Part shown: positions 19,143 through 63,357 of the stretch, piece after piece
How positions within the stretch are numbered: position 1 is the stretch's first letter
Layout: the number at the start of each line of letters is the position of its first letter
DNA from: a virus
Reading direction: 5' to 3' (one strand)
DNA: 64,000 nucleotides
Virus record (IMG/VR): IMGVR_UViG_3300045988_102744
Notes under the pieces: model-generated
The model's database searches: none
What the model was told of the DNA's origin: nothing
Seen by the model: only the letters and a program-made list of their open reading frames with translations
Program-made: the position numbers and the translations under genes

Positions 19143-19880
19143 ATGAGAAGAAGATTTGAAAATAATGCTAAACTATATGAGTATAAGATAGTTAGCGATT
19201 GTATAGGGGGGGGGGTAATCGTAGAAGGAAAGAAAGTAGGCACCATTCCACAGGGCGGGCAATTTATCTTTCTGTCTAAAAAAGAACGGCTGGATTCCAT
19301 AAGTGTCCAAGGCGGTGTTCCAATGGAAGATAGGCAAGAGATCGATAGTCAGGTTGATACGACAGAGGAATTGCTTGAACAGGATTCGGTGGTTCTTGCT
19401 ATTGCTTTAACAACCTCTCCTTATTATGGATTTAGAGTAAGTGTGATAGCACCTGATGAGTTTACGCTAAGAACAACCAATAGGATTAATAGAACCTTTT
19501 TAATAACAAGCTTTACTCCACCTGCTGCTATATACGGTGTAAACTTTAGTGATCCTATTGTCCTTAATTATGATAGTTACCAATATGAGATGTCAGATCT
19601 TGTAATTGATGGACCTCATGATAGAATAGTTAGGGCAGATCCTAATTTTACTTGGGCTATAAGATGTACAGATGCCGACTTTACACCTTTGCCATATCCA
19701 GAATCATGGTCTGGCCAAGGTTTAAATTCTATGTTCTTATCAGAAATGAAACGTCTTACTCCTGGTGATCATCATGTATCATATACAGCTTATATTAATT
19801 TGGACTTGATAGATGATGGCGGAAGTAAAGTTCATACTGAATATCTGATATTAGAAAAAACACTTAATTTTACGATATGA
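19143..19880 (+). CDS. hypothetical 245-aa protein with N-terminal MRRRF motif and an internal G10 homopolymer (Gly-Gly-Gly)
   Basis: ORF track; G10 run at 19206-19215 in frame. Confidence 0.6.
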   Translation: MRRRFENNAKLYEYKIVSDCIGGGVIVEGKKVGTIPQGGQFIFLSKKERLDSISVQGGVPMEDRQEIDSQVDTTEELLEQDSVVLAIALTTSPYYGFRVSVIAPDEFTLRTTNRINRTFLITSFTPPAAIYGVNFSDPIVLNYDSYQYEMSDLVIDGPHDRIVRADPNFTWAIRCTDADFTPLPYPESWSGQGLNSMFLSEMKRLTPGDHHVSYTAYINLDLIDDGGSKVHTEYLILEKTLNFTI

Positions 19881-26966: not shown

Positions 26967-27323
26967 TCACATTATTCCTTCCAAATTTACTTTAATAGAA
27001 CCATTTATAGTTTTAATGCTCCCATCTATGGTTGAAATCACATCATCTAAATCATTTATAATACCTTCCATGTCATCAACCACCTCCTCCATATAAGTTA
27101 CAGCCTGATCTGATTCCCAATATCTTTCTGAGTCTTGTAACGATTCAGGTATATTATCTCTCGCCTCAGTCTCTTCGTCTAAAATCATATCAACATCATC
27201 TTTGGCTGAATTTATGTTATACTTCAACTCCGATAACTTTGATTTGATGTATTCAAAATCTGTTTTATACTTATCTACGTTTTTAATAACACCCAATATT
27301 TTTTTTCTTCTCTTGTCGTTCAT
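26967..27323 (-). CDS. hypothetical 118-aa acidic coiled-coil protein
   Basis: ORF track; ATGA overlap with helicase gene. Confidence 0.5.
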   Translation of the reverse strand: MNDKRRKKILGVIKNVDKYKTDFEYIKSKLSELKYNINSAKDDVDMILDEETEARDNIPESLQDSERYWESDQAVTYMEEVVDDMEGIINDLDDVISTIDGSIKTINGSIKVNLEGIM

Positions 27324-48281: not shown

Positions 48282-48519
48282 TTATAATTCAACTCCCTTA
48301 TTTTCCATTTCCTTAATTACCTTTCTTGCTGTCTCAAGTTCAAAAAGTCTCGCTATTGCTTCATCCTTCATTTTTTTAGCATTTCTGAATCTTTCAGGGT
48401 TTTCTCCTCTCTTAAAAAAAGTCATAACCGGCCTCTTCGTATTCTGAAATGGATCTCTTTACTTCCATAACTGCTTTGAATGATTCATTTTCAAGATAAG
48501 CATGTGCTGTTGGTTTCAT
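48282..48519 (-). pseudogene. small gene split by a +1/-1 frame break at a T7/A7 homopolymer (35-aa MKPTAHAYLENE... plus 47-aa MTFFKRGENPERF...; fused 78 aa if run were 6)
   Basis: two overlapping ORFs in adjacent frames joined across A7 at 48414-48420; ATG 48519 overlaps Dam stop (ATGA). Confidence 0.35.
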
Positions 48520-49180
48520 TTTAGTTCTTTGATTAAAGCATCCGCATATATCACAGCTAATTCAGCCGCCTTATCACACGCTTCCAATATTAATTCACCG
48601 TGAGGTCCACGCCCTGATACAGATGTGATCGGAAGCACAGTTTTCGCTATCTCGTATCTACGTTGTTCCCAATCTACATGGGTGTTACACGGTTCTTGAT
48701 TGACCTGTATATATCTTCCTTCAATATTAGAAGATCTTAATGTTTCCGCATTCTCTTCGCCGAATGCAACCAGAATAGACCCACATCCTGGACTTTCACC
48801 TATTGTCCCATCTTCTCTGTGGAATTTTATTCTTCCTTTCATGAACAATATACCTTTCGCTTTCGGGAATACAACATCCTGAAACATCTTATTGTCAAGA
48901 CGATTGAAAAGAAGAGCTATTCCATTATTGTGCTCTACCATACGAGTAATAAAATGCTCTATCGTCGGTCTTGAATAAGGTGGGTTTAACCATACCCTTC
49001 CTTCCCATTCCTGTTTTAATCCATCTTGTTCTTTGTTGTACATCACTCTGGCTGTCCTCCATAAAGGACGCATAGGCGCACATGGATCTAAATCAAATTC
49101 TCCTAAAGCATCTATAATCTCTTTAGGTGTGTACCATTCATCTGTACTATTTTTTTTGATTTTTCAAATGATGTGTTCAT
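48516..49180 (-). CDS. phage-type DNA N6-adenine methyltransferase (Dam family, NPPY), N-terminus out of frame at an A8 tract
   Basis: VWLNPPYSR motif IV; upstream in a second frame STDEWYTPKEIIDALGEFDLDPCAPM (typical family N-terminus) and ATG at 49180 (MNTSFEKSKK); frames join only if the T8 run at 49150-49157 were 9. Confidence 0.7.
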
Positions 49181-49198: not shown

Positions 49199-49861
49199 TT
49201 AATCCCATCCTCCATCAGCATACAAAGATACGTCTTCCTCCTCTACATTCACACCCTTAAGAGCTTGCAGAAGCTTTTTCTTTGTCTCCCTACACATATT
49301 GTAACCATATCCCTTATACTTATATGATCTTTCCCATGTACTCACTGGGAAGGGGATATTTTCATCAATGACCAGCCTCTTCATATGAAGATGTTCGAAG
49401 AATTTATCATGGTATAGAAGTTTATACTCGTATCCTACTATATCAGTAGATGAGAATGGAAAATAATCATCTTCCTTTTCTTCGTATTTAGGCTCCTTAT
49501 AGTAAGCCATTTTTGTCACAGTAAAATCGAAGCTCCTAAGAATCTCTTCTGGCTTTCCAAACTCTGACTCTATGAACTCTATCCATACCTTTTCTCCCTC
49601 TTTCTGGAACGCACATACCTTCTCATTTCTGTACTTAAATTTCCATCCTTCTTTCTGATGTTTTTCATCATTGAACAAATCAACAGCTTCCTGAAAATCG
49701 CTTTCGCTTTCAAAGAAAATATCAATGTCTTTTACTTTTTCTCCGGAAAGAATATTCTTAAAACATCCACCAGCTATGAATCCTTTGTGGCCTTCCATAT
49801 ACTTGTCAAGCCATCTTATTTGCCATAAGTTATCGGGAGTATCTATTACAAAATTATTCAT
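49199..49861 (-). CDS. nucleotidyltransferase-fold protein (pol-beta superfamily GG...D-I-D motif)
   Basis: GFIAGGCFKNILSGEKVKDIDIFF fits hG[GS]x9-13 D-h-D-h NTase signature; 220 aa. Confidence 0.5.
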   Translation of the reverse strand: MNNFVIDTPDNLWQIRWLDKYMEGHKGFIAGGCFKNILSGEKVKDIDIFFESESDFQEAVDLFNDEKHQKEGWKFKYRNEKVCAFQKEGEKVWIEFIESEFGKPEEILRSFDFTVTKMAYYKEPKYEEKEDDYFPFSSTDIVGYEYKLLYHDKFFEHLHMKRLVIDENIPFPVSTWERSYKYKGYGYNMCRETKKKLLQALKGVNVEEEDVSLYADGGWD

Positions 49862-50637: not shown

Positions 50638-50850
50638 TTATAGTTCTGTTTTATGTTGTTTGTAATTATTTATAACTTTCACTTCTTCGCTCCACAAACG
50701 TCTCTTATATATCGGAGTGATGCCGATCAGAATGCCACTACCTTTACCCCAATACTGAAGTATTTTGGACTCAATTTTATGATGCAATTCTTGTATTCCT
50801 CCTTTGTTTCTGTCATAAGGAGAAAAATCAGATAACTTTACCGTTTTCAT
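50638..50850 (-). CDS. hypothetical 70-aa protein
   Basis: ORF track; ATGA overlap. Confidence 0.4.
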   Translation of the reverse strand: MKTVKLSDFSPYDRNKGGIQELHHKIESKILQYWGKGSGILIGITPIYKRRLWSEEVKVINNYKQHKTEL

Positions 50851-51584
50851 TTTTCTGGATTTTCAGCAGTTCCTAAAAGACATTCATTACCCTCAAAAGG
50901 AATGCAACAGTCCCATAATGTTCCATTGGAACATTCATACTTATAAGACAATCCATCAGAATCGTCCACAATTTCCCTTGCAAACAAGCTGATATGCCAT
51001 TCTTTATCGCCCTCGTCTCTTACCAGCACTTTGTCAAACGGCTTAAACTCATATTTCGGCTCTTCTTCAATTCCGAAGAAGCGTTTCAGATATTCCTTAG
51101 CCTTTGGATTCTTGCTTGCCTTTAATGCGTTAATCATCCTCTGTTTTTCCGAATCTGTCGCAAGTCTATAGCGTTCTATTTCGTTATTACATGCAGCAAA
51201 ATTACCCGATATATTAAGACCTGCTCCCGCTGCAAGACTCGCATAAAAAGATGTTAAATATTTCCCATGTATATTTAAAATAAAAATAAAACTTCCATCT
51301 TCGTTGCTTAACACCTCTCCATCTTTAAATGTAATATATTCTGGAACTTCAAGAAGGAGGCGATTTTCGCTGCTAAGTGCTTTTCCTGTAGCAGAAAACC
51401 AATCTGCCGATACAGAAATAGAGTGAATTACAACCAATAACGGACAATTCGACAAATTATCTTCATATACGATTTCTGCCCTATCTCGTCCTTTCTCTGT
51501 CACAATCCGACCTGATATTTTCCCTTCTCTTATTCTCTTCGCCGTTTCTAAATCAAACGGTATTATTACCATTTTATGTTCCAT
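50847..51584 (-). CDS. hypothetical 245-aa protein, member of a tandem paralogue pair
   Basis: N-terminus MVIIPFDLETAKRIREGKISG and C-terminus KPFDKVLVRDEGDKEWHISLF...CIPFEGNECLLGT shared with 51589..52387. Confidence 0.55.
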   Translation of the reverse strand: MEHKMVIIPFDLETAKRIREGKISGRIVTEKGRDRAEIVYEDNLSNCPLLVVIHSISVSADWFSATGKALSSENRLLLEVPEYITFKDGEVLSNEDGSFIFILNIHGKYLTSFYASLAAGAGLNISGNFAACNNEIERYRLATDSEKQRMINALKASKNPKAKEYLKRFFGIEEEPKYEFKPFDKVLVRDEGDKEWHISLFAREIVDDSDGLSYKYECSNGTLWDCCIPFEGNECLLGTAENPEK

Positions 51585-51588
51585 AATC

Positions 51589-52387
51589 TTATTTGTTTTT
51601 ATTAGTTCCTAAAAGATGTTCGTGCCCTTCGTATGGGATACACTGACTAAATCCTACACCTCCTAAGCATTCATATTTATTATCTCCTCCTGATTCTCTG
51701 GAAAATAGATGTAATTTCCACCTCTCTTGGTTAGTTCTTCTCACCAGCACTCGTTCAAATGGTTTGAAGTCGTGTTTCGGCATCTCATCTAATAGATACT
51801 CATATTCACTTAAATATCTTTTTATTATATTTATTTTTCTACCGTCTTCGGCTTTTATAATCTTTTCTGCTAAAAATTTCTTCTCTTCTTCTATAGCCTT
51901 TCTTACATTCCTATTTTTATCTTCGCTATACACATCAGTCCATAATATGCAACGATCAAACTCAATATCTCCATATGTTGTCATTCCGCATATACTTCCC
52001 ATTGCCCCTTCGGTAATAAGTCCATCATATATGAATTGACATCCTTTAGTGCTTGTTAATATATCTCCTTCCTTAAAATACGCTCCAGCCTCTACCCTCA
52101 ATTCCAGAGTGGTATCGCCAAGAGCACAACCTTCTGTATCGGCATATATAGCACTTATTCCAGATCCATCTTTTTTTTACAAAAAGTAAATTATAACGAT
52201 CTGCACAGTCTTTCGACTCATATACAAATTCTATTTCAATATTATCAATTAATACCGAACCTTCTATTTCTCCGCTTTTAATTTTTCTCGCCGTATTTAA
52301 ATCAAACGGAACAATAATTAGATTTTTCATATTTTTCTTGTTTTTAATTATGTGATTAATAAAATAAGATGGACTACTTACACCCAT
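51589..52387 (-). pseudogene. tandem paralogue of 50847..51584, interrupted by a frame break at an A8/T8 homopolymer (52171-52178)
   Basis: track ORFs 52073..52387 (MKNLIIVPFDLNTARKIKSGEIEG...) and 51589..52101 (...KPFERVLVRRTNQERWKLHLF...CIPYEGHEHLLGT) join in frame if the run were 7. Confidence 0.5.
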
Positions 52388-57130: not shown

Positions 57131-57456
57131 TTTTCTTCCTCCTCATTATCCCATCCTAAACAAGAATCTAAATGTGAAATAAAAATTGTAGCTCCCTTAT
57201 TTTCTTCTACAGTAGGATACTCTACCTCATAATAGTCAAATTCAGAGCTCTCTAATCCGACCCTATCTTCACCCCATCCATTTTTGGTTCCATCCTCTGC
57301 CATTTCTTTAAGCTTTTCCAAAGCCTCTTCTGGTGTTTCTGCTTCAATGGATAATCTATCTTTCATCCATCCATAAACCCTTCTTTCTACTTCAAATATA
57401 AATTCTTTCATTTCGCTATTTTTTTTTTGTTTATTATATTTCACATCTTGTATCAA
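57127..57456 (-). CDS. hypothetical 109-aa acidic protein
   Basis: ORF track; ATGA overlap. Confidence 0.5.
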   Translation of the reverse strand: MIQDVKYNKQKKNSEMKEFIFEVERRVYGWMKDRLSIEAETPEEALEKLKEMAEDGTKNGWGEDRVGLESSEFDYYEVEYPTVEENKGATIFISHLDSCLGWDNEEEEK

Positions 57457-62468: not shown

Positions 62469-62848
62469 TTTACCACCCTTTCCACGTGCTTAATTGATAC
62501 TACTGCCATCCCTTTACCGGTTTTTATCGCACATTCCGATCCTTTTATCCATTCTACACACCCTACATACTTTTCTGTAGAATGAAAACCTGGATTGTAT
62601 TTCCCAGATGTACTGAACTCTACCGTATCCCCTACCTTCAGATCCTCAAAAGCAATAGCCCATGTGGTCCAAATTCTATCATGCCTCCCAGGCTGAATGG
62701 CTCCTATTACGCCCTTCTTGCGACCGTTTTTTATTGCCTTTAGTATTATACTCCTATCACCTTCAACAAGGCTGCAAAAGCGCCCGTAAAAGGTCAAATC
62801 AACCTGTTTTCCTCCTATTTCTTCTCTTATTTTTGTTATTCTGTTCAT
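62465..62848 (-). CDS. hypothetical 127-aa protein, possible PUA/ASCH-like fold (ILKAIKNGRKK ... LKVGDTVEF)
   Basis: ORF track; weak ASCH-like pattern. Confidence 0.45.
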   Translation of the reverse strand: MNRITKIREEIGGKQVDLTFYGRFCSLVEGDRSIILKAIKNGRKKGVIGAIQPGRHDRIWTTWAIAFEDLKVGDTVEFSTSGKYNPGFHSTEKYVGCVEWIKGSECAIKTGKGMAVVSIKHVERVVK

Positions 62849-63092
62849 TTTCTGATTTTGTTTTATTTTTTTCTTTGTTTTTTCTATCTTCTATAGAAGA
62901 TGATAATAACATTATCTTTTCTATGTTACTTTTTGACTGTAAAAAAGAATCGCATTTCATTACTACTACCACCTTCTTAAGTTCCCCATTATCATACAGC
63001 GATACACGCATCATGTTTTGCACCTCGTCCACTATCAGACCTGGAGTAGTCTTAGCCATTTTGCGTAGCTTATTATACTCCGGTCTTTCCAT
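62799..63092 (-). CDS. hypothetical 97-aa protein with basic Lys/Asn-rich C-terminus
   Basis: ORF track. Confidence 0.4.
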   Translation of the reverse strand: MERPEYNKLRKMAKTTPGLIVDEVQNMMRVSLYDNGELKKVVVVMKCDSFLQSKSNIEKIMLLSSSIEDRKNKEKNKTKSENEQNNKNKRRNRRKTG

Positions 63093-63357
63093 TTCCTCTG
63101 TTTATTACTCTATAGTATTTATCCTTATCCCCTTCTTTCAACTTCTCCAGATAGAAAATTCCATCATGCAAATGAGACAAACAAAACCTGTATCCGTATT
63201 TCTGTACTCTTCTTACATGATCCCGCAGTCTTATCTCTTCACTTTTGTCTTGTACTTTGATTTTAATACTGTCTCCTTCTTTGATTGTGTATAAAATAGT
63301 TTGAATCTCTTCTTTTTTCATCTTATAAAATATTTTAACGGCAGCACCTATACTCAC
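63073..63357 (-). CDS. hypothetical 94-aa protein
   Basis: ORF track. Confidence 0.45.
   Translation of the reverse strand: MSIGAAVKIFYKMKKEEIQTILYTIKEGDSIKIKVQDKSEEIRLRDHVRRVQKYGYRFCLSHLHDGIFYLEKLKEGDKDKYYRVINRGNGKTGV

What the first reader, a model, noticed from the sequence alone, without database searches (positions are those of the whole stretch)
48516..49180. Phage Dam-type N6-adenine methyltransferase whose N-terminus is out of frame at an A8 homopolymer: phase variation or sequencing error
The NPPY methyltransferase ORF (48516..49073) lacks its family-typical N-terminus, but that N-terminus (STDEWYTPKEIIDALGEFDLDPCAPM) is encoded immediately upstream in another frame. A proper ATG (MNTSFEKSKK, 49180) sits in a third register. 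The three pieces join into one 221-aa Dam protein only if the T8 run at 49150-49157 (A8 on the coding strand) were 9 long. A homopolymer-switched methyltransferase would be a phasevarion-like on/off switch. The same pattern recurs at an A8 run in the 51589..52387 paralogue and an A7 run in the small gene at 48282..48519, each needing a different correction. Systematic homopolymer miscalls are therefore the more economical explanation.
Basis: seen in the sequence. Interest (0 to 1): 0.55.

Follow-up and report, generated by a model that had tools for sequence, protein, structure and literature searches.

The report
Slippery poly-A switch in phage methyltransferase
A human-gut crAss-like phage carries a DNA-methylating gene whose reading frame is set by a run of A's that differs between 8 (broken, as here) and 9 (intact) in near-identical phages from many people, so this is a real natural on/off variant and not a sequencing error.

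Summary
The frameshift is real. On the minus strand, ATG 49180 opens MNTSFEKSKK. An A8 run (49150-49157) puts it one base out of register with the Dam-family domain (open frame 49163..48516). Only two registers are involved, not three.

A9 restores a 221-aa protein. That protein, identical to the window's pieces in every other residue, is on 72 public contigs. The window's truncated 185-aa ORF is on 58, and all 10 fetched copies are A8. A8 and A9 occur on 2.2-kb haplotypes with zero SNPs between them, and on all four protein haplotypes of this lineage (114 OFF : 137 ON). One A10 was seen. A sister lineage with only A5 at this spot is 8% OFF (Fisher p 2e-39), through varied nonsense and indel lesions. 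dN/dS between intact alleles is 0.03.

No other long run in the window clearly breaks a frame (one A7 candidate was left unresolved), which argues against systematic miscalling.

Best reading: a slippage-prone tract that behaves as a phage contingency locus in an orphan methyltransferase, with this copy OFF. Within-population switching, adaptive value and the methylated motif are untested. The closest precedent is the A9 tract in phage T2 agt. Verdict: a new member of a known kind.

The parts
49150..49157 (-). Poly(A) tract, A8 on the coding strand (T8 on +), codons 8-11 of the methyltransferase gene. This is the frame-setting element: A9 or A6 is ON, A8 or A10 is OFF.
   Evidence: Tract census in related contigs: A8 x11, A9 x19, A10 x1.
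49112..49180 (-). 5' end of the gene in the start-codon register: ATG 49180, 22 codons (MNTSFEKSKKIVQMNGTHLKRL), TAG stop 49114-49112.
48516..49163 (-). Open frame (-1 relative to the ATG) that holds the whole Dam-family domain plus a C-terminal ~57-aa extension. It runs KIKKNSTDEWYTPKE...FDLDPCAPMRPLW...NPPY...IKELK.
   Evidence: Pfam PF05869 at 56.8 bits for the joined protein, profile positions 4-127. The 185-aa ORF alone covers only positions 45-127. phrog_111 DNA methyltransferase, E 1e-42.
48516..49073 (-). The 185-aa ORF callable from the first ATG (M37 of the full protein). It lacks invariant residues D14 E15 W16 Y17 T18 P19 L26 G27 F29 D32 P33 C34.
   Evidence: The exact protein (P0165) is on 58 public contigs and in 96 index blocks.
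48975..48986 (-). NPPY catalytic motif (motif IV) of the N6-adenine methyltransferase.
   Evidence: N66, P68 and Y69 are invariant in 25 homologues.
48282..48519 (-). Small gene split into 35-aa and 47-aa ORFs by a coding-strand T7 at 48414-48420. T6 gives the intact 78-aa protein.
   Evidence: Intact 78-aa protein on 237 contigs, the split pieces on 9 contigs. The T7 allele occurs in several different gene neighbourhoods and with the methyltransferase ON or OFF.
51589..52387 (-). Paralogue of the gene at 50847..51584, split into 104-aa and 170-aa ORFs by an A8 run at 52171-52178. A7 gives the intact 265-aa protein.
   Evidence: The intact exact protein is on 32 contigs, with other intact 265-aa variants on 79 and 54 contigs. 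N-terminal pieces are on 17 contigs (104 aa) and 34 contigs (85 aa). A8 occurs on at least two haplotype backgrounds.
49199..49861 (-). Upstream neighbour: a nucleotidyltransferase-like gene (Pfam Gad2 hit on record, annotated 'polyA polymerase' in csAssE-Sib). It gives context as a variable accessory, possibly anti-defence, region.

Best explanation
The window is from an epsilon crAss-like phage of the human gut. The gene at 48516..49180 (minus strand) is an orphan Dam-family N6-adenine DNA methyltransferase.

Its reading frame is set by a poly(A) run in codons 8-11. These codons fall in the low-confidence (probably disordered) N-terminal leader of the predicted structure, ahead of the conserved domain. 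With A9 the gene encodes a 221-aa enzyme (ON). With A8, as in this window, translation from ATG 49180 stops after 22 codons. The only remaining ORF starts at M37 and lacks twelve invariant N-terminal residues (OFF, or at most leaky).

The run changes length repeatedly in nature, most simply by slipped-strand mispairing during replication. ON and OFF copies therefore coexist on otherwise identical phage haplotypes across many people. In behaviour this is a phage contingency locus, a phase-variation-like switch in a DNA-modification gene.

Shown: the anatomy; that the A8 allele is real; recurrent A8/A9/A10 changes; a five-fold higher OFF share than in the sister lineage without the long run; long-term purifying selection on the protein.

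Inferred: slippage as the mutational mechanism; that OFF abolishes methylation; that switching is fast and reversible within a population; that the polymorphism is kept by alternating selection (protection from methylation-sensitive restriction when ON, escape from methylation-dependent defence or a cost when OFF); that the target is GATC, as in the characterised T1/HP1/VT2 Dam group (from memory).
For: Anatomy. Family: PF05869 at 56.8 bits against a cut-off of 28.1, phrog_111 at E 1e-42, and NPPY plus N-terminal invariant residues.

Real allele. The exact A9 version of the window protein (P0121) is on 72 contigs and in 130 index blocks. The window's 185-aa ORF (P0165) is on 58 contigs and in 96 blocks, and 10 of 10 fetched copies are A8. 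The window equals L014 (ENA) and L015 (JGI) over 8.4 kb.

Recurrence. Pairs with 0 SNPs in about 2.2 kb differ in run length: L012 and L018 are A8 against L025, L027 and L034 at A9; the window and L016 are A8 against L030 and L033 at A9. L013 (A8) and L032 (A9) differ by 1 SNP, and L007 is A10. At least 5 changes are needed on a 23-taxon tree. Both states occur in two distinct ±700-bp haplotype groups, and one A9 is nested among A8 copies, which suggests a reversion.

OFF:ON contig counts per protein haplotype are 58:72, 41:45, 1:12 and 14:8, giving 114:137. The A5 sister lineage gives 90:980. Odds ratio 9.1, p 2e-39.

The gene is worth keeping: dN/dS is 0.03 at dS 0.22 between the two lineages. 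Three of the four main OFF haplotypes have an exact ON counterpart, so they show no extra decay.

No systematic error: no other long run clearly breaks a frame.

The tract sits in a low-confidence leader, pLDDT below 50 for residues 1-15.

Precedent: the A9 tract in T2 agt switches a DNA-modification enzyme and reverts about 1000-fold faster than a point mutant.
Against: No reads were available, so heterogeneity and switching rate inside one phage population are unknown.

Contig counts come from overlapping public assemblies (Logan, ENA, JGI). They are not independent samples of equal weight.

Two unbiased DNA-pattern scans found A9 nine times, A10 once and A8 not at all. The A8 share may therefore be lower than the protein index suggests, or those collections may lack the relevant contigs.

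Recombination could spread one A8 allele among backgrounds. It would need breakpoints within about 140 nt of the tract on several haplotypes.

In the sister lineage the gene is also knocked out by nonsense mutations. Neighbouring accessory genes are broken in 5-21% of loci, and csAssE-Sib lacks the gene altogether. All of this fits plain dispensability as well as it fits adaptive switching.

No methylation data exist.
Confidence: 0.68

Rival explanations
1. One-way decay. The methyltransferase is a dispensable accessory gene being lost. The poly(A) run is only the most likely place for an inactivating mutation, and OFF copies are pseudogenes with no switching function.
For: The sister lineage shows at least 12 different lesions. 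They include W16 to TAG and TGA, W59 to TAG and TGA, W64 to TGA, Q to TAA, A5 to A4 or A6, and other 1-nt deletions.

The gene is replaced by another in csAssE-Sib. Neighbouring accessory genes are broken in 5-21% of loci. The window strain has three broken genes within 4 kb.
Against: dN/dS is 0.03 between intact alleles. Three of the four main OFF haplotypes have an exact ON counterpart and carry only the single lesion, so OFF copies are young.

All 11 OFF copies of this haplotype are exactly one step (A8) from ON. One A9 is nested among A8 copies, which suggests reversion.
Confidence: 0.2
2. Recoding. The A8 allele is still expressed as full-length enzyme, either by -1 ribosomal frameshifting on the heptamer A_AAA_AAA or by RNA polymerase adding an A while transcribing the run. 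On this view the frameshift tunes dosage rather than knocking the gene out.
For: The Dam register is exactly -1 from the ATG register. The 0-frame reads TC-A-AAA-AAA, a classical slippery heptamer. The slipped product would be identical to the A9 protein P0121.

Runs of 8-10 A are known sites of transcriptional slippage in bacteria (from memory).
Against: No stimulatory structure lies downstream: MFE -12.5 kcal/mol, z -0.39, with 62 of 200 shuffles folding as well.

The configuration is not conserved. Close relatives are in frame at A9 and the sister lineage has no slippery site. Nonsense alleles elsewhere show that true nulls are tolerated.
Confidence: 0.07
3. Sequencing or assembly artefact. 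The true run is A9 and the window's A8, along with the other two odd run lengths, are homopolymer miscalls.
For: There are three homopolymer frame breaks within 4 kb of one contig. In pattern scans of two collections the window's three alleles were all in the minority: 0 of 10, 0 of 8 and 0 of 3.
Against: The longest runs in the window (T10, G10, T9 x2, A9) are in frame. The required corrections go in both directions.

Identical sequence comes from two pipelines. The same A8 is in 10 other samples, and the same T7 is in nine contigs from at least seven samples with varied neighbourhoods.
Confidence: 0.05

Closest known systems
Phage contingency loci: the A9 tract in coliphage T2 agt (Gomez, Barrick & Waters, bioRxiv 10.1101/2025.10.21.683753)
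   Same: Both are coding poly(A) runs of 9 in a phage gene that modifies the phage's own DNA. A change of ±1 gives a null allele. In T2 the nulls are selected by a modification-dependent restriction system and revert at high rate, and point-mutation nulls occur alongside. The logic proposed here is the same.
   Different: T2 agt is a glucosyltransferase acting on hmC in a lab coliphage, and its switching was measured directly. Here the enzyme is a Dam-family adenine methyltransferase in an uncultured crAss-like gut phage. The tract is at the extreme 5' end, and the evidence is allele distribution across metagenomes, not measured rates.
Hypermutable polyG tracts of Campylobacter phages (Sorensen et al. 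2021, Cell Rep 35:109214; reference seen)
   Same: Homopolymer length variation in phage genes creates ON/OFF subpopulations.
   Different: Those tracts are poly-G in receptor-binding or host-range genes, not poly-A in a DNA-modification gene. This window does also carry a polymorphic G8-G10 tract in a different gene.
Bacterial phase-variable methyltransferases (phasevarions: Type III mod genes, Helicobacter homopolymer-containing methyltransferases; from memory)
   Same: A simple-sequence repeat inside a methyltransferase ORF switches methylation on and off.
   Different: Those are chromosomal, usually part of restriction-modification systems, and defined by a regulon that changes with the switch. 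This gene is phage-borne and orphan, with no restriction gene beside it. No regulatory role is known.
T1/HP1/VT2-type small phage Dam methyltransferases (Pfam PF05869)
   Same: Above-threshold Pfam match, NPPY motif and small size. Homologues of 160 aa are common in Bacteroides and Phocaeicola phages and prophages at 66-81% identity.
   Different: This protein carries an extra C-terminal ~57-aa segment (phrog_28300, unknown function) and a Lys insertion that creates the long A run. Specificity is untested.

Membership tests
Dam-family N6-adenine DNA methyltransferase (Pfam PF05869 / phrog_111) | Sequence match above the curated threshold | tested here: met
   Joined 221-aa protein: 56.8 bits against a cut-off of 28.1, profile positions 4-127 of 169. 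phrog_111 at E 1.2e-42.
Dam-family N6-adenine DNA methyltransferase (Pfam PF05869 / phrog_111) | Catalytic (D/N)PPY motif and the conserved N-terminal block (DEWYTP...FDLDPCA), joined to a start codon | tested here: not met
   Both motifs are encoded. In this window, however, the start codon is out of register, so the only startable ORF (M37) lacks the N-terminal block. The A9 alleles meet the feature.
Dam-family N6-adenine DNA methyltransferase (Pfam PF05869 / phrog_111) | Class I SAM-methyltransferase fold | tested here: inconclusive
   AlphaFold model: mean pLDDT 70.7, core residues 20-160 mostly 73-94. The best Foldseek PDB hits are all SAM methyltransferases (KsgA/Dim1, CcrM), but E is 0.01 or worse and TM about 0.26-0.31. 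No sequence match to any solved structure.
Dam-family N6-adenine DNA methyltransferase (Pfam PF05869 / phrog_111) | m6A activity at a defined motif | not testable with these tools
   No methylation data. GATC is frequent in the window (234 sites, O/E 0.78), which is compatible with protection but says nothing about it.
Contingency locus / SSR-mediated phase variation | Simple-sequence repeat inside the ORF whose length sets the frame | tested here: met
   A8 is out of frame and A9 in frame; A10 also occurs.
Contingency locus / SSR-mediated phase variation | Repeat length varies among otherwise identical genomes, by recurrent events | tested here: met
   0-SNP pairs with different lengths; at least 5 changes on the tree; ON and OFF on all four protein haplotypes.
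Contingency locus / SSR-mediated phase variation | High-frequency, reversible switching within a clonal population | not testable with these tools
   This needs reads or culture. The only indirect hint of reversion is an A9 nested among A8 copies.
Contingency locus / SSR-mediated phase variation | Phenotypic consequence under alternating selection | not testable with these tools
   Inferred by analogy with T2 agt.
Phasevarion (phase-variable methyltransferase controlling a regulon) | Methyltransferase belongs to a restriction-modification system and its switch changes expression of a gene set | tested here: not met
   No restriction or specificity gene is adjacent. The neighbours are a nucleotidyltransferase-like gene and small ORFs of unknown function. 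The regulon is not testable.
Programmed -1 ribosomal frameshift (dnaX type) | Slippery heptamer X_XXY_YYZ in the 0 frame, with the downstream ORF in the -1 frame | tested here: met
   TC-A-AAA-AAA, with the Dam frame at -1.
Programmed -1 ribosomal frameshift (dnaX type) | Stimulatory element, and conservation of the frameshift arrangement in relatives | tested here: not met
   No significant downstream structure, z -0.39. Relatives are in frame, at A9 or at A5.

The most novel reading that the evidence does not exclude
An abundant crAss-like gut phage keeps a set of hypermutable homopolymers as bet-hedging switches. One is a poly-A that toggles its own orphan Dam methyltransferase. Its progeny would then be a mix of methylated and unmethylated genomes, able to survive hosts with either methylation-sensitive or methylation-dependent defences. 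Another is a poly-G that toggles a second gene near the giant structural protein. If the phage persists in a carrier or plasmid-like state, the methyltransferase switch could also flip the host's epigenome, making a phage-borne phasevarion.
Probability: 0.25. Interest if true: 0.75.

Novelty: new member of a known kind. Interest (0 to 1): 0.55.

Why it matters
Contingency loci in phages have so far been shown directly in laboratory coliphages (2025 preprint) and Campylobacter phages. Here hundreds of public human-gut assemblies show the same behaviour in an uncultured crAss-like phage, at a gene that decides whether the phage genome is methylated.

This makes a concrete idea testable with existing data: that gut phages hedge between modified and unmodified DNA to cope with the varied restriction systems of Bacteroidales. 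The tests are read-level tract spectra and 6mA calls from long-read metagenomes.

There is also a practical point. Frame breaks at homopolymers in metagenomic phage genomes should not be 'corrected' automatically as errors.

Tried and rejected
(1) Systematic homopolymer error. I lengthened and shortened every run of 7 nt or more (6 or more for G/C) in the window and compared spanning ORFs. The scan's other flags were a plus-strand hit at 27299-27306, not followed up, and a doubtful A7 at 62866-62872 that looks like ordinary overlapping small ORFs.

(2) -1 frameshift stimulator. The 80 nt after the tract fold no better than shuffles.

(3) Solved-structure relatives. There are none by sequence, and Foldseek gives only weak generic SAM-methyltransferase hits.

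(4) GenBank phages. The only close relative, csAssE-Sib at 92% identity, has a different 438-bp gene in place of the methyltransferase and the small gene, so it cannot settle the tract length.

(5) Unbiased DNA-pattern scans gave few hits, 4 in IMG/VR and 6 in metagenome contigs, and none was A8. The A8 evidence comes from the exact-protein index instead.

It was repeated without them.

(7) Literature searches for 'csAssE-Sib' and for CTAG avoidance in crAss phages found nothing. The spelling 'crAssE-Sib' found the genome paper, which mentions neither the methyltransferase nor frameshifts.

(8) Stop-codon reassignment as an explanation for the in-frame stops in sister alleles. I rejected it because TAG, TGA and TAA all occur as lesions, and the window's long ORFs read normally in code 11.

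Full report
WHAT IS IN THE SEQUENCE

The gene lies on the minus strand. ATG at 49180 opens MNTSFEKSKK. The codons then run through eight A's (49150-49157) and read on as IVQMNGTHLKRL, to a TAG at 49114-49112. One base back, in the -1 register, there is a single uninterrupted frame from 49163 to 48516. It reads KIKKNSTDEWYTPKEIIDALGEFDLDPCAPMRPLW...WLNPPY...IKELK.

The 'family-typical N-terminus' is therefore in the same frame as the 185-aa ORF (48516..49073). It is simply upstream of that ORF's first ATG.

A9 (or A6) joins the ATG to the domain. The joined 221-aa protein matches Pfam PF05869 (Dam) at 56.8 bits against a cut-off of 28.1, over profile positions 4-127. The 185-aa ORF covers only positions 45-127. 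The joined protein also matches phrog_111, DNA methyltransferase, at E 1e-42.

In an alignment of 25 homologues, D14 E15 W16 Y17 T18 P19 L26 G27 F29 D32 P33 C34 are invariant, and all of them lie upstream of M37. A product started at M37 is therefore very unlikely to be active.

An AlphaFold model has a confident core (residues 20-160) and a low-confidence, probably disordered leader (residues 1-15, pLDDT below 50). The tract falls in that leader. Foldseek gives only weak hits, all to SAM-dependent methyltransferases. No solved relative is found by sequence.

WHERE IT COMES FROM

The closest GenBank record is phage csAssE-Sib (OR575929, 151 kb, human gut, 92% identity), an epsilon crAss-like phage. 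In that genome the methyltransferase and the small gene after it are replaced by an unrelated 438-bp gene, so this is a variable accessory region.

The upstream neighbour is a nucleotidyltransferase-like gene with a Pfam Gad2 hit on record. Downstream lie a DUF3988-like gene and an AAA ATPase. No restriction gene is adjacent. Homologous 160-aa methyltransferases are common in Bacteroides and Phocaeicola phages and prophages.

IS THE A8 AN ERROR?

Four lines of evidence say no.

First, I altered every run of 7 nt or more (6 or more for G/C) in the window by ±1 and ±2 and compared the spanning ORFs. The unaltered length already gives the longest frame at T10 (57419), G10 (19206), T9 (35147, 36544) and A9 (8166). 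The other flags were a plus-strand hit at 27299-27306, not followed up, and one doubtful A7 site.

Second, the window is identical over 8.4 kb, including all three odd run lengths, to an ENA MEGAHIT contig and a JGI contig. These may share the same reads.

Third, the window's 185-aa ORF is present as an exact sequence on 58 contigs and in 96 index blocks. All ten contigs fetched come from different runs and assemblers, and all carry A8.

Fourth, the three corrections go in different directions: +1, -1 and -1.

POPULATION PATTERN AT THE METHYLTRANSFERASE TRACT

The exact A9 version of the window protein (P0121, 221 aa, no other difference) is on 72 contigs and in 130 index blocks. The A6 and A12 versions of this haplotype are absent. 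Pattern scans found A9 x3 and A10 x1 in IMG/VR, and A9 x6 in metagenome contigs.

In a 2.2-kb alignment around the tract, contigs with zero SNPs between them differ in tract length:
- L012 and L018 are A8; L025, L027 and L034 are A9.
- The window and L016 are A8; L030 and L033 are A9.
- L013 (A8) and L032 (A9) differ by one SNP.
- L007 is A10.

A neighbour-joining tree needs at least five tract changes among 23 taxa. Within ±700 bp there are three haplotype groups. Two of them hold both states, and in one of these a single A9 sits among three A8 copies, which suggests a reversion.

Pairing each truncated protein with its full-length counterpart gives OFF:ON contig counts of 58:72, 41:45, 1:12 and 14:8. 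That totals 114:137, or 45% OFF, for the lineage with the long tract.

THE SISTER LINEAGE

A closely related lineage encodes the same residues as TCT AAA AAC AGT, an A5 run without the extra Lys. There the OFF:ON total is 90:980, or 8%. The difference from the long-tract lineage has odds ratio 9.1 and p 2e-39.

Its OFF alleles arise from many different lesions: W16 to TAG and to TGA, A5 to A4, A5 to A6, and three other 1-nt deletions. Among copies truncated further in, the lesions are W59 to TAG and to TGA, W64 to TGA, Q to TAA, and another A5 to A6.

Yet dN/dS between intact alleles of the two lineages is 0.03 at dS 0.22. Three of the four main OFF haplotypes of the long-tract lineage also exist as an ON protein, so their OFF copies carry no further damage. 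The gene is thus strongly conserved over the long term and frequently, but recently, knocked out. The long A run multiplies the knock-out share about five-fold.

As a control, I scored genes in the same 45 loci that were not selected for their state. They were broken in 0 of 27, 0 of 31, 1 of 23, 1 of 26, 1 of 20 and 2 of 43 loci. The Gad2-like gene was broken in 4 of 42. The two other tract-bearing genes were broken in 5 of 24 and 4 of 20.

THE OTHER TWO FRAME BREAKS

The intact 78-aa small protein (T6) is on 237 contigs and the split pieces (T7) on 9. The T7 allele appears in several different gene neighbourhoods, with the methyltransferase ON, OFF or otherwise broken.

The intact 265-aa paralogue (A7) is on 32 contigs for this exact sequence, with other intact variants on 79 and 54 contigs. 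N-terminal pieces from A8 alleles are on 17 and 34 contigs. A8 occurs on at least two backgrounds.

These two are therefore also real, recurrent, rarer alleles. A close relative, L033, differs from the window by seven SNPs in 6 kb and has all three genes intact.

MECHANISM AND RIVALS

The simplest account is slipped-strand mispairing at a run that a synonymous TCT-to-TCA change and a Lys-codon insertion lengthened from A5 to A9. This gives frequent A9-to-A8 changes, fewer A9-to-A10 changes, and probably the reverse steps.

This matches the recently described contingency loci of phages. In T2 an A9 run in agt, also a DNA-modification gene, yields nulls that escape a modification-dependent restriction system. 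Those nulls revert about 1000-fold faster than a point mutant, and point-mutation nulls are selected alongside them. PolyG tracts of Campylobacter phages are another precedent (reference seen).

By analogy, I infer that ON protects the phage from methylation-sensitive restriction, and OFF avoids methylation-dependent defence or a cost. This step is inference.

The main rival is plain one-way decay of a dispensable gene at a mutational hot spot. It fits the nonsense alleles, the broken neighbours and the gene's absence from csAssE-Sib. It fits poorly with dN/dS of 0.03 and with the lack of secondary damage in OFF copies.

Recoding is geometrically possible, by -1 frameshifting on A_AAA_AAA or by transcriptional slippage, and would give exactly the A9 protein. 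But there is no downstream structure (z -0.39) and the arrangement is not conserved. At most it makes OFF leaky.

Sequencing error is the least likely reading.

NOVELTY

The mechanism and the concept are known: bacterial phase-variable methyltransferases, and phage contingency loci. What is new is the case. This is an orphan Dam-type methyltransferase of an uncultured crAss-like gut phage, with ON and OFF alleles at comparable frequency across many human samples. I file it as a new member of a known kind.

I do not file it as a phasevarion. It has no restriction-modification context and no known regulon. Fast reversible switching within a population also remains to be shown.

Noticed in passing
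window 19206-19215 (gene 19143..19880, + strand): A G10 run in codons 22-25 of a 245-aa gene just downstream of the 2140-aa giant protein gene. In 26 IMG/VR contigs with identical flanks the run is G8 x5, G9 x11 and G10 x10. G10 is in frame, and G9 gives an immediate TAA stop. It is a strong candidate poly-G contingency locus. The protein has no Pfam or PHROG match. Poly-G runs are also error-prone, so reads are needed.
   Followed up: partly
whole window 1-64000; also 672 kb of related loci (L001, L006-L103): The tetranucleotide CTAG is absent from the 64-kb window, against a Markov expectation of about 105. It occurs only 8 times in 672 kb of related contigs. GGCC (O/E 0.43) and CGCG (0.51) are also depleted, while GATC is not (234 sites, O/E 0.78). 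This looks like restriction-site avoidance. CTAG-cutting enzymes such as BfaI come from Bacteroides (from memory).
   Followed up: partly
window, all homopolymers: Runs of 8 are more frequent than runs of 7 (T8 x11 against T7 x5; A8 x3 against A7 x3), contrary to a geometric decline. Several lie just upstream of start codons on the coding strand. One example is the A10 at 57419-57428 before an ATG near 57410, which may be an A-rich translation-initiation leader.
   Followed up: no
window 62799-63357, minus strand (A7 on coding strand at 62866-62872): Three short overlapping ORFs of 94, 97 and 127 aa. Removing one A from the run would fuse two of them into a frame of about 211 codons. This could be a fourth homopolymer frame break, or just overlapping small genes.
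   Followed up: partly
window 34537-36579, minus strand (A9 runs at 35147-35155 and 36544-36552): The 377-aa ORF 35154..36287 ends in a TAA whose last two bases are the first two A's of an A9 run. It overlaps the 251-aa ORF 34537..35292 by 139 nt. I did not check whether this is a true overlap or another tract-dependent junction.
   Followed up: no
L035-L044 and L085-L094 (sister-lineage methyltransferase alleles): The same Trp codons are hit repeatedly by G-to-A nonsense changes (W16 to TAG and TGA, W59 to TAG and TGA, W64 to TGA) in independent samples. This is an unusually rich loss-of-function spectrum for one 220-codon gene.
   Followed up: partly
L002 (Bacteroides phage LoVEphage MW660583, 38316-38805): The homologous Dam gene is annotated as two overlapping CDSs (192 and 336 bp) in this isolate genome, so it is also split there. 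The cause was not examined.
   Followed up: no
loci L017, L028, L029, L039, L088, L090, L101, L102 (gene homologous to window 49199..49861): The upstream Gad2-like nucleotidyltransferase gene is split or shortened in a sizeable minority of public contigs: 4 of 42 in the scored set, with more in later fetches. This suggests frequent inactivation of this accessory gene too.
   Followed up: partly
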